A stretch of 64,000 bases of DNA, taken from assembly GCF_013167455.1 (NCBI RefSeq), contig NZ_CP038328.1; one strand, written 5' to 3'. Each line of letters opens with the position of its first letter. The first letter of the stretch is position 1. Of the stretch, positions 1-3,000 are shown piece by piece. This stretch comes from Escherichia coli O157:H7. GTDB lineage: Bacteria; Pseudomonadota; Gammaproteobacteria; Enterobacterales; Enterobacteriaceae. The position numbers are program-made.

Positions 1-3000
1 CTTCGTGTACCGGGCGTTGTAGAAGTTTGCCATTGCTCTCTGATAGCTCGCGCGCCAGCGTCATGCAGCCTGCCCAGCCTTCACGTTTTGAGGGCATTGG
101 CGATTCCCACATATCCATCCAGCCGATAACAATACGCCGACCATCCTTCGCTACAAAGCTTTGTGGTGCATAAAAGTCATGCCCGTTATCAAGTTCAGTA
201 AAATGCCCGGATTGTGCAAAAAGTCGTCCTGGCGACCACATTCCGGGTATTACGCCACTTTGAAAGCGATTTCGGTAACTGTATCCCTCGGCATTCATTC
301 CCTGCGGGGAAAACATCAGATAATGCTGATCGCCAAGGCTGAAAAAGTCCGGACATTCCCACATATAGCTTTCACCCGCATCAGCGTGGGCCAGTACGCG
401 ATCGAAAGTCCATTCACGTAATGAACTGCCGCGATAAAGCAGGATCTGCCCAGTGTTGCCTGGGTCTTTCGCCCCGACTACCATCCACCATGTGTCGGCT
501 TCACGCCACACTTTAGGATCGCGGAAGTGCATGATTCCTTCTGGTGGAGTGAGGATCACACCCTGTTTCTCGAAATGAATACCATCCCGACTGGTAGCCA
601 GACATTGTACTTCGCGAATTGCATCGTCATTACCTGCACCATCGAGCCAGACGTGTCCGGTGTAGATAAGTGAGAGGACACCATTGTCATCGACAGCACT
701 ACCTGAAAAACACCCATCTTTGTCATTCTCGTCTCCTGGCGCTAGCGCAATAGGCTCATGCTGCCAGTGGATCATATCGTCGCTGGTGGCATGTCCCCAG
801 TGCATTGGCCCCCAGTGTTCACTCATTGGGTGATGTTGATAAAACGCGTGATAACGATCGTTAAACCAGATCAGGCCGTTTGGATCGTTCATCCACCCGG
901 CAGGAGGCGCGAGGTGAAAATGGGGATAGAAAGTGTTACCTCGGCGCTCGTGAAGTTTTGCTAGTGCGTTTTGCGCCGCATGCAATCGAGATTGCGTCAT
1001 TTTTATCATCCTGGTTAAGCAAATTTGGTGAATTGTTAACGTTAACTTTTATAAAAATAAAGTCCCTTACTTTCATAAATGCGATGAATATCACAAATGT
1101 TAACGTTAACTATGACATTTTGTGATCGAATATGCATGTTTTAGTAAATCCATGACGATTTTGCGAAAAAGAGGTTTATCACTATGCGTAAGTCAGATGA
1201 ATTTAAGGGAAAAAAATGTCAGCCAAAGTATGGGTTTTAGGGGATGCGGTCGTAGATCTCTTGCCAGAATCAGACGGGCGGCTACTGCCTTGTCCTGGCG
1301 GCGCGCCAGCTAACGTTGCGGTGGGAATCGCCAGATTAGGCGGAACAAGTGGGTTTATAGGTCGGGTGGGGGATGATCCTTTTGGTGCATTAATGCAAAG
1401 AACGCTGCTAACTGAGGGAGTCGATATCACGTATCTGAAGCAAGATGAATGGCACCGGACATCCACGGTGCTTGTCGATCTGAACGATCAAGGGGAACGT
1501 TCATTTACGTTTATGGTCCGCCCCAGTGCCGATCTTTTTTTAGAGACGACAGACTTGCCCTGCTGGCGACATGGCGAATGGTTACATCTCTGTTCAATTG
1601 CGTTGTCTGCCGAGCCTTCGCGTACCAGCGCATTTACTGCGATGACGGAGATCCGGCATGCCGGAGGTTTTGTCAGCTTCGATCCCAATATTCGTGAAGA
1701 TCTATGGCAAGACGAGCATTTGCTCCGCTTGTGTTTGCGGCAGGCGCTACAACTGGCGGATGTCGTCAAGCTCTCGGAAGAAGAATGGCGACTTATCAGT
1801 GGAAAAACACAGAACGATCGGGATATATGCGCCCTGGCAAAAGAGTATGAGATCGCCATGCTGTTGGTGACTAAAGGTGCAGAAGGGGTGGTGGTCTGTT
1901 ATCGAGGACAAGTTCACCATTTTGCTGGAATGTCTGTGGATTGTGTCGATAGCACGGGGGCGGGAGATGCGTTCGTTGCCGGGTTACTCACAGGTCTGTC
2001 CTCTACGGGATTATCTACAGATGAGAGAGAAATGCGACGAATTATCGATCTCGCTCAACGTTGCGGAGCGCTTGCAGTAACGGCGAAAGGGGCAATGACA
2101 GCGCTGCCATGTCGACAAGAACTGGAATAGTGAGAAGTAAACGGCGAAGTCGCTCTTATCTCTAAATAGGACGTGAATTTTTTAACGACAGGCAGGTAAT
2201 TATGGCACTGAATATTCCATTCAGAAATGCGTACTATCGTTTTGCATCCAGTTACTCATTTCTCTTTTTTATTTCCTGGTCGCTGTGGTGGTCGTTATAC
2301 GCTATTTGGCTGAAAGGACATCTAGGGTTGACAGGGACGGAATTAGGTACACTTTATTCGGTCAACCAGTTTACCAGCATTCTATTTATGATGTTCTACG
2401 GCATCGTTCAGGATAAACTCGGTCTGAAGAAACCGCTCATCTGGTGTATGAGTTTCATCCTGGTCTTGACCGGACCGTTTATGATTTACGTTTATGAACC
2501 GTTACTGCAAAGCAATTTTTCTGTAGGTCTAATTCTGGGGGCGCTCTTTTTTGGCCTGGGGTATCTGGCGGGATGCGGTTTGCTTGACAGCTTCACCGAA
2601 AAAATGGCGCGAAATTTTCATTTCGAATATGGAACAGCGCGCGCCTGGGGATCTTTTGGCTATGCTATTGGCGCGTTCTTTGCCGGCATATTTTTTAGTA
2701 TCAGTCCCCATATCAACTTCTGGTTGGTCTCGCTATTTGGCGCTGTATTTATGATGATCAACATGTGTTTTAAAGATAAGGATCACCAGTGCGTAGCGGC
2801 GGATGCGGGAGGGGTAAAAAAAGAGGATTTTATCGCAGTTTTCAAGGATCGAAACTTCTGGGTTTTCGTCATATTTATTGTTGGGACGTGGTCTTTCTAT
2901 AACATTTTTGATCAACAACTTTTTCCTGTCTTTTATGCAGGTTTATTCGAATCACACGATGTAGGAACGCGCCTGTATGGTTATCTCAACTCATTCCAGG

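What the first reader, a model, noticed from the sequence alone, without database searches (positions are those of the whole stretch)
1001..1215. Duplicated 13-bp palindrome in the csc divergent promoter
TGTTAACGTTAAC occurs twice, 64 bp apart, between cscA and cscK. Two identical palindromic sites suit a dimeric LacI-family repressor such as CscR (its gene would lie beyond the window start) and could allow DNA looping.
Basis: partly seen in the sequence, partly recalled or inferred. Interest (0 to 1): 0.3.

Follow-up and report, generated by a model that had tools for sequence, protein, structure and literature searches.

The report
Known CscR operators of sucrose genes
The two identical palindromes between the sucrose genes cscA and cscK are the repressor (CscR) binding sites already proposed for this E. 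coli locus in 2002, so the finding is real but ordinary; the same two-site layout turns out to be kept, at a nearly fixed 64-bp spacing, in dozens of related bacteria.

Summary
GTTAACGTTAAC, a perfect 12-bp palindrome with a central CG, occurs exactly twice in the window, at 1035-1046 and 1099-1110. Both copies lie in the 215-bp cscA/cscK divergent region, 64 bp apart. The same 12-bp palindrome occurred twice in only 20 of 100,000 composition-matched shuffles.

Jahreis et al. 2002, as reported in PMC11251922 and PMC3938415, described two copies of a 12-bp inverted repeat between cscA and cscK as putative CscR operators. One of them carries a derepressing mutation. Crp sites were described in the same region.

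The LacI-family gene cscR lies just beyond the window start.

My comparison of 80 Enterobacterales loci found the operator pair in 64. The spacing is 64 bp in 43 loci, 62-63 bp in 14 and 68-69 bp in 7. The pair sits in a fixed module: Crp site, upstream operator, Crp site, -10 zone, downstream operator at the predicted transcription start.

DNA looping is untested and not favoured. CscR has no LacI-type tetramerisation tail. The fixed spacing is explained by promoter geometry.

Novelty: already known. Interest: low.

The parts
1035..1046 (.). Operator O1, the downstream operator of the cscA promoter: GTTAACGTTAAC. Its centre is 40 bp upstream of the cscA ATG and it covers the predicted cscA transcription start.
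   Evidence: Exact palindrome. The equivalent site is nearly invariant in 64 loci, at 1.78 bits per column over 16 bp. PMC11251922 says the downstream operator overlaps the transcription start.
1099..1110 (.). Operator O2, the upstream operator: GTTAACGTTAAC. It lies between two Crp-like sites, with its centre 111 bp upstream of the cscK ATG.
   Evidence: Exact palindrome. Conserved at 1.73 bits per column. Crp-like sites flank it at fixed offsets in 45 and 53 of 64 loci.
1080..1095 (.). Crp-like site 1, TGCGATGAATATCACA (1 mismatch of 10 to TGTGA-N6-TCACA), between the two operators. Its centre is 17 bp from the O2 centre. It is predicted to sit at -41.5 of the cscA promoter.
   Evidence: A site at the same offset is present in 53 of 64 loci. 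PMC11251922 reports a Crp site next to the -35 of the cscA promoter (Jahreis 2002).
1121..1136 (.). Crp-like site 2, TGTGATCGAATATGCA (left half perfect, right half weak; 3 mismatches of 10). Its centre is 24 bp from the O2 centre, on the cscK side.
   Evidence: A site at the same offset is present in 45 of 64 loci. PMC3938415 states that two cAMP-Crp sites lie in the bidirectional csc promoter (citing Sabri 2013).
1047..1062 (-). Predicted -10 zone of the cscA promoter. It holds the conserved CTTT at 1062-1059 and two candidate hexamers, TATTTT (1059-1054) and TATAAA (1053-1048). This is an inference.
   Evidence: CTTT is conserved across loci. The placement follows from geometry relative to Crp site 1. 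The consensus promoter scan found nothing here.
1177..1182 (+). Conserved TATCAC. It is a candidate -10 of the cscKB promoter, which would put Crp site 2 near -61.5 and O2 near -85. This is an inference.
   Evidence: The TATCA core is invariant in 10 divergent-type intergenic regions from 5 genera (alignment A1).
1..1000 (-). cscA (GH32 invertase). The 5' two-thirds of the gene lies in the window and runs off its left end.
1216..2130 (+). cscK (PfkB-family fructokinase).
2202..3449 (+). cscB (LacY-family sucrose/H+ symporter).

Best explanation
The two copies of GTTAACGTTAAC are the operators of the LacI-family sucrose repressor CscR in the divergent cscA / cscKB control region, as already proposed in the literature. 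Each perfect palindrome should bind one CscR dimer. O1 (1035-1046) lies on the predicted start site of the cscA promoter and would block RNA polymerase directly. O2 (1099-1110) lies 17 bp and 24 bp, centre to centre, from two cAMP-Crp sites. From there it would interfere with Crp-dependent activation, either by excluding Crp or by occupying the DNA where the polymerase alpha subunit binds. This would affect both the cscA promoter and the divergent cscKB promoter, and cscKB has no operator of its own. Inducer releases CscR, and Crp then activates both promoters when glucose is absent. Shown here: the sites, their significance, the adjacent repressor gene, and conservation of the module. Taken from the literature: CscR-dependent repression, the operator mutation, and cAMP dependence. 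Inferred: the transcription start positions, and how O2 acts.
For: Two exact palindromes that chance does not explain. The form is typical of LacI-family operators: an even palindrome with a central CG, 40 and 111 bp upstream of start codons (criteria from PMC4052901). cscR is adjacent and is a standard LacI-family protein. PMC11251922 reports that Jahreis et al. 2002 identified two copies of a 12-bp inverted repeat between cscA and cscK. It also reports that one of them was hit by an up-mutation, that the operators flank the -35/-10 of the cscA promoter with the downstream one on the start site, and that a Crp site lies next to the -35. PMC3938415 recovered the cscKB operator mutation again in E. 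coli W and notes two Crp sites. My comparison found the pair in 64 of 80 loci, with spacing of 64 bp in 43 and 62-63 bp in 14. Crp-like sites sit at fixed offsets of -18.5 and +22.5 from the upstream operator. Operators and Crp half-sites carry 1.4-1.9 bits per column against 0.3-0.55 bits in the spacers. A Crp site at -41.5 places the start exactly on the first base of the downstream operator (arithmetic). CscR homologues next to these modules all keep the recognition helix VS(L/M)MTVSR, although overall identity falls to 48-73%. No third operator-like site exists on the cscK side; the best candidate has 5 or more mismatches of 12.
Against: I found no direct binding data (EMSA or footprint) for CscR in the papers I could read, and those papers still call the operators putative. 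The primary papers, Jahreis 2002 and Sabri 2013, are not in the library. I therefore could not compare their figure base by base, see mapped transcription starts, or learn which operator carries the mutation. The consensus promoter scan found no sigma-70 promoter in 900-1320, so start sites rest on Crp geometry alone. Crp site 2 is weak in E. coli, with 3 of 10 mismatches.
Confidence: 0.85

Rival explanations
1. Repression loop. CscR dimers bound at O1 and O2 contact each other, or form a tetramer, and loop out the 52 bp between them, which carry Crp site 1 and the cscA -10. This would resemble LacI O1-O3 with CAP, or GalR OE-OI. The 64-bp spacing would then be kept because both sites must face the same side of the helix.
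For: The centre-to-centre distance of 64 bp is 6.1 helical turns, so the sites are in phase. The spacing is held at 62-64 bp in 57 of 64 loci even though the intervening sequence is very divergent. A Crp-induced bend between the sites would help a short loop form (general knowledge of lac O1-O3/CAP).
Against: CscR ends at residue 331, with its sugar-binding domain matched to residue 329. It therefore has no C-terminal tetramerisation segment of the LacI type. Seven Proteus-group loci keep the pair at 68-69 bp, about 6.5 turns and out of phase. The 64-bp spacing is fully predicted without looping: the upstream operator abuts Crp site 1, Crp sits at -41.5, and the downstream operator starts at +1. 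The typical cooperative LacI-family spacings reported are 13, 22 and 32 bp (PMC4052901).
Confidence: 0.15
2. CytR-like anti-activation. CscR at O2 is held between two Crp dimers and binds cooperatively with them through protein-protein contacts. This would turn the activators into part of a repression complex.
For: O2 sits between two Crp-like sites whose centres are 41 bp apart. This arrangement is kept in most loci, including Serratia loci where the upstream gene is co-directional and ends 44-65 bp before the operator. In those loci the outer Crp site cannot serve a divergent promoter.
Against: CytR operators are weak and depend on Crp (textbook knowledge), whereas these operators are perfect, highly conserved palindromes that should bind on their own. 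The 17-bp centre distance to Crp site 1 suggests overlap and competition rather than cooperation. No data exist on CscR-Crp contacts.
Confidence: 0.08
3. The repeats are not regulatory. They would be chance tandem HpaI (GTTAAC) sites in AT-rich DNA, or the remnant of a small duplication.
For: The region is AT-rich, at 29% GC. About 12% of shuffles contain some 12-bp palindrome.
Against: The same palindrome occurred twice in only 20 of 100,000 shuffles. Similarity does not extend beyond 14-17 bp, so this is not a segment duplication. The sites are nearly invariant across genera while flanking DNA is saturated with changes. A published operator mutation derepresses the regulon (PMC3938415, PMC11251922).
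Confidence: 0.01

Closest known systems
CscR operators of the E. coli EC3132 / W csc regulon (Jahreis et al. 2002; Sabri et al. 2013; reviewed in PMC11251922 and PMC3938415)
   Same: Same locus, same genes, and the same description: two copies of a 12-bp inverted repeat between cscA and cscK, together with Crp sites. The window is a csc-positive E. coli. Positions 1-7261 are 99.9% identical to O157:H7 strain PV15-279, and 960-1260 are 100% identical.
   Different: Nothing differs in kind. I could not read the primary figures to confirm base-for-base identity or to learn which operator carries the published mutation.
ScrR operators at the scrY promoter of pUR400 and Klebsiella (Cowan 1991; Jahreis and Lengeler 1993, as summarised in PMC11251922)
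   Same: [quoted passage not shown] The downstream operator lies on the start site and a Crp site lies further upstream.
   Different: A different repressor orthologous group with 14-bp operators of different sequence, a PTS-type pathway, and a Crp site that is poorly conserved across species (PMC11251922). Here both Crp sites are positionally conserved.
LacI O1/O3 with CAP, and GalR OE/OI repression loops
   Same: Two operators bracket a Crp-dependent promoter, and the sites are in helical phase at 64 bp.
   Different: CscR has no LacI tetramerisation tail. The distance is shorter than 92 or 113 bp. Out-of-phase variants of 68-69 bp exist. Looping has not been shown.
CytR-Crp nucleoprotein complexes (deoP2, cdd, udp)
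   Same: A LacI-family repressor site lies between tandem Crp sites.
   Different: The operators here are perfect palindromes rather than weak, Crp-dependent sites. The Crp centres are 41 bp apart, against roughly 52-53 bp at deoP2 (recalled from memory). No evidence exists for protein-protein contact.

Membership tests
LacI-family repressor operator (CscR operator) | An even-length palindrome with a central CG pair. | tested here: met
   GTTAAC|GTTAAC is a perfect 12-bp palindrome with a central CG, and both copies are exact. The cross-species consensus of the upstream site extends to AATGTTAACGTTAACATT. The criterion comes from PMC4052901.
LacI-family repressor operator (CscR operator) | Located in the promoter region of the regulated sugar genes, typically 30-140 bp upstream of a start codon. 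| tested here: met
   The O1 centre is 40 bp upstream of the cscA ATG and the O2 centre is 111 bp upstream of the cscK ATG. The range comes from PMC4052901.
LacI-family repressor operator (CscR operator) | A cognate LacI-family regulator gene lies in the same locus. | tested here: met
   A 331-aa protein with LacI HTH (E 1e-21) and Peripla_BP_1 (E 2e-92) is encoded 8 bp beyond the cscA stop. A homologue with an invariant recognition helix lies within 4 kb of most modules.
LacI-family repressor operator (CscR operator) | The site is conserved at orthologous loci while neighbouring non-coding DNA diverges (phylogenetic footprint). | tested here: met
   The pair is present in 64 of 80 loci. Operators carry 1.73-1.78 bits per column against 0.28-0.55 bits in the spacers.
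LacI-family repressor operator (CscR operator) | Matches the published csc operators: two copies of a 12-bp inverted repeat between cscA and cscK. | tested here: met
   These are the only two perfect 12-bp palindromes in the region, and they fit the description in PMC11251922. The primary figure in Jahreis 2002 could not be read.
LacI-family repressor operator (CscR operator) | Direct binding by the repressor (EMSA or footprint) and release by inducer. | not testable with these tools
   I found no such data in the papers held. The reviews call the operators putative.
DNA-looping repressor system (LacI / GalR type) | The repressor can bridge two operators, through a tetramerisation domain or dimer-dimer contact. 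| tested here: not met
   CscR is 331 aa and its domain match reaches residue 329, so there is no LacI-type C-terminal heptad segment. Other modes of association cannot be excluded.
DNA-looping repressor system (LacI / GalR type) | The operators are kept in helical phase. | tested here: inconclusive
   Spacing of 62-64 bp (5.9-6.1 turns) occurs in 57 loci, but 68-69 bp (about 6.5 turns) occurs in 7 Proteus-group loci. Promoter geometry alone also predicts 64 bp.
CytR-type anti-activation | The repressor site is flanked by tandem Crp sites. | tested here: met
   Crp-like sites are centred at -18.5 (45 loci) and +22.5 (53 loci) relative to the upstream operator.
CytR-type anti-activation | A weak operator whose occupancy depends on Crp. 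| tested here: not met
   The operators are perfect palindromes and nearly invariant. Dependence on Crp itself cannot be tested here.

The most novel reading that the evidence does not exclude
The unit that is conserved may not be 'two operators' but a rigid five-part module: Crp site, operator, Crp site, -10, operator. It is shared by csc-type loci across Enterobacterales, including loci with no divergent gene. In that module the upstream operator works by anti-activation, excluding or trapping the two flanking Crp dimers. In E. coli this would be the only way CscR can repress cscKB, because O2 lies about 65-85 bp upstream of any plausible cscKB start and no other operator exists on that side. 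Under this reading the divergent cscKB promoter borrowed the outer Crp site and the shared operator of an ancestral one-way promoter.
Probability: 0.3. Interest if true: 0.4.

Novelty: already known. Interest (0 to 1): 0.12.

Why it matters
This control region decides whether csc-positive E. coli, including the industrial strain W and many pathogenic lineages, can use sucrose at low concentrations. Operator and cscR mutations are the standard route to faster sucrose growth (PMC3938415). Confirming the sites adds nothing new for E. coli.

The broader comparison may be modestly useful. The pair and its Crp sites form a fixed module in dozens of genera. This gives a clean operator consensus, AATGTTAACGTTAACATT, for annotating CscR regulons. 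It also points to a testable question: how a single upstream operator represses the divergent cscKB promoter.

Tried and rejected
- **Primary papers.** I tried to read Jahreis 2002 (PubMed 12218016, PMC135337) and Sabri 2013 (PMC3553775). Neither is held, so published start sites and the position of the mutation could not be checked.
- **Full-text sequence search.** Searching for GTTAACGTTAAC returned only unrelated cloning papers.
- **CscR binding data.** A search for CscR EMSA, footprint or biosensor work returned nothing relevant.
- **Promoter and terminator scan.** The consensus scan of 900-1320 found no sites. The promoters are presumably Crp-dependent with poor -35 and -10 elements.
- **Third near-match.** I considered the near-match at 61794 as a possible extra CscR target. 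It lies in lambdoid prophage DNA near lom and hok-like genes and is most likely chance.
- **Segment duplication.** I considered a larger duplication as the source of the repeat. Similarity stops at 14-17 bp.
- **Extra operator for cscKB.** I looked for a hidden third operator near cscK. The best candidate has 5 or more mismatches of 12.
- **Mapping the whole window.** I tried to map the window onto O157:H7 PV15-279. Only positions 1-7261 are collinear.
- **Operator variants within E. coli.** I did not survey operator variation across the 2,663 csc-positive E. coli genomes.

Full report
**Observation**

The window carries the exact 13-mer TGTTAACGTTAAC at 1034-1046 and 1098-1110. The palindromic part is the 12-mer GTTAACGTTAAC, at 1035-1046 and 1099-1110. 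The exact shared repeat is 14 bp (TGTTAACGTTAACT), and similarity ends within 17 bp, so this is not a segment duplication.

The 12-mer occurs nowhere else in the 64 kb. In 100,000 shuffles of the 215-bp, 29% GC intergenic region, the same perfect 12-bp palindrome appeared twice in only 20. Allowing up to 2 mismatches, the window has 7 matches against 1.32 expected.

- cscA lies on the minus strand, with its start codon at 1000-998.
- cscK lies at 1216-2130 on the plus strand.
- cscB lies at 2202-3449 on the plus strand.

Pfam assigns these three to GH32, PfkB and LacY_symp respectively.

**Context**

Window 960-1260 is 100% identical to E. coli O157:H7 genomes. It is found on the chromosome of 2,663 of 5,426 complete E. 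coli genomes. In O157:H7 PV15-279, a LacI-family gene lies 8 bp beyond the cscA stop, convergent with it. The protein is 331 aa, with a LacI HTH at residues 3-48 and Peripla_BP_1 at residues 61-329.

**What is already known**

PMC11251922 (2024) makes the following points:
- Jahreis et al. 2002 identified two copies of a 12-bp inverted repeat in the cscA-cscK intergenic region as putative CscR operators.
- The two flank the -35/-10 of the cscA promoter, with the downstream one on the transcription start.
- A Crp site lies next to the -35.
- These elements are conserved in five species.

[quoted passage not shown] It recovered the known cscKB operator mutation again in E. coli W and cites two cAMP-Crp sites in the bidirectional promoter.

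The finding and its interpretation are therefore published. I could not open the primary papers, and I found no direct binding experiment in the held library.

**Independent comparative test**

I used CscA to fetch 80 loci, one per species, from Enterobacterales. Of these, 64 carry a pair of GTTAACGTTAAC-like sites with at most 2 mismatches per site. The pair lies upstream of cscA, or upstream of a LacY-like permease-cscA operon. The 16 loci without a pair include:
- loci cut by contig ends;
- loci with a single site;
- loci with no csc-type context, such as Lonsdalea.

Start-to-start spacing of the pair:

| Spacing | Loci | Note |
|---|---|---|
| 64 bp | 43 | |
| 63 bp | 11 | |
| 62 bp | 3 | |
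| 68-69 bp | 7 | Proteus group: altered half-sites, no Crp-like site |

When the loci are stacked on the upstream operator, a fixed module appears. Offsets below are counted from the first base of that operator, called a:
- a Crp-like site centred at a-18.5, found in 45 loci with at most 2 of 10 mismatches;
- the upstream operator at a to a+11;
- a Crp-like site centred at a+22.5, found in 53 loci;
- a conserved CTTT at a+48 to a+51;
- the downstream operator at a+64, followed by an invariant AAT.

Information content by region, for 40 non-redundant sequences:

| Region | Bits per column |
|---|---|
| Two operators (16 bp each) | 1.73 and 1.78 |
| Crp half-sites of site 1 (inner); right half of site 2 (outer) | 1.4-1.9 |
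| Left half of Crp site 2 | 0.78 |
| Other stretches | 0.28-0.55 |

The adjacent CscR homologues are 48-73% identical overall, yet all keep the recognition helix VS(L/M)MTVSR.

**Geometry and mechanism**

In window coordinates the module reads:
- O1 at 1035-1046
- the -10 zone at about 1047-1062
- Crp site 1 at 1080-1095 (TGCGATGAATATCACA)
- O2 at 1099-1110
- Crp site 2 at 1121-1136 (TGTGATCGAATATGCA)

If Crp site 1 is a class II site at -41.5, the cscA start falls at 1046, the first base of O1. This matches the published statement that the downstream operator overlaps the start. This geometry alone fixes the operator spacing at 64 bp.

O2 is 17 bp from the centre of Crp site 1 and 24 bp from the centre of Crp site 2. 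CscR bound at O2 should therefore interfere with Crp or with the polymerase alpha subunit. That step is an inference.

On the cscK side there is no further operator-like sequence. The only strongly conserved element there is TATCAC at 1177-1182 (alignment A1). If TATCAC is the cscKB -10, Crp site 2 sits near -61.5 (class I) and O2 near -85. Repression of cscKB must then work from upstream, through O2.

In Serratia loci the upstream neighbour is co-directional and ends 44-65 bp before the operator. The outer Crp site is nevertheless kept. The tandem-Crp arrangement is therefore not just a by-product of divergent transcription.

**Looping**

In favour of looping:
- A 64-bp spacing is 6.1 helical turns, so the sites are in phase.
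- The spacing is strongly conserved.

Against looping:
- CscR has no LacI-type C-terminal tetramerisation segment.
- The Proteus group keeps the pair at 68-69 bp, which is out of phase.
- The spacing is explained by promoter geometry.

I rate looping as possible but not supported.

**Verdict**

The feature is already known: these are the putative CscR operators of the csc regulon, described in 2002.

My added value is limited to three points:
- The pair is embedded in a rigid Crp-operator-Crp-promoter-operator module conserved in 64 of 80 species loci.
- The module yields an 18-bp consensus, AATGTTAACGTTAACATT.
- cscKB has no operator of its own.

Interest is low.

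Noticed in passing
L007-L081, Crp site 1 of the module (offset a+20 to a+25); the window equivalent is 1085-1090: In most non-Escherichia loci the spacer of the inner Crp site is itself conserved (TGTGATTAACATCACA, 1.46 bits per column against 0.54 for the outer site's spacer). 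It creates ATTAACAT, a near copy of the operator's right half plus flank, 13 bp downstream of the equivalent bases in the operator. E. coli lacks it (TGTGATATTCATCGCA). It could be an extra CscR half-site overlapping Crp. Unexplained.
   Followed up: partly
L046-L049, L052, L055, L058 (Proteus) and L009, L010, L012 (Providencia): These are variant operator pairs. Proteus has GATAACGTTAAC and GTTATCGTTAAC at 68-69 bp with no Crp-like sites. Providencia has GTTAATGTTAAC and GTTAACATTAAC, with the central CG changed to TG or CA, at 64 bp. The CscR recognition helix is unchanged in both groups.
   Followed up: partly
window 1177-1182 (and 1166-1186): TATCAC, within GGTTTATCACTATG, has an invariant TATCA core across 10 divergent-type csc intergenic regions from 5 genera, whether the gene downstream is cscK or cscB. 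It is a candidate -10 for the divergent promoter or a site for another factor.
   Followed up: partly
window 1184-1243 (+): A 19-codon ORF (ATG CGT AAG TCA GAT GAA ...) is preceded by GAGG and overlaps the cscK start in another frame. The ATG is not conserved in Rosenbergiella, so it is probably not a real leader peptide.
   Followed up: partly
window 12442-12516 (-): tRNA-Arg (CCT), that is argW, the known integration hot spot next to the csc / dsd locus.
   Followed up: no
window about 7262-64000, sampled at 61000-62600: Beyond about 7.3 kb the window is not collinear with O157:H7 PV15-279. The sampled part matches lambdoid prophage DNA in other Shiga-toxin-type E. coli (Ail/Lom family outer membrane protein, Hok/Gef family protein). 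The csc locus here therefore abuts a prophage.
   Followed up: partly
window 61794-61805: CTTAACGTTAAC, one mismatch from the operator core, lies in the prophage region between a 244-aa and a 133-aa ORF. It is most likely chance.
   Followed up: partly
window 3529-6751 (L001 8570-11791): Downstream of cscB the O157:H7 annotation lists a DUF4942 fragment, a recombinase-family gene (window 4047-4673, minus strand) and a frameshifted hypothetical gene (window 5339-6751). These are remnants of mobile DNA between csc and argW.
   Followed up: no
L001 3144-3362: Upstream of cscR the D-serine transporter gene dsdX is truncated (annotated as missing its N-terminus) while dsdA is intact. This fits the published insertion of csc into the dsd locus.
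   Followed up: no
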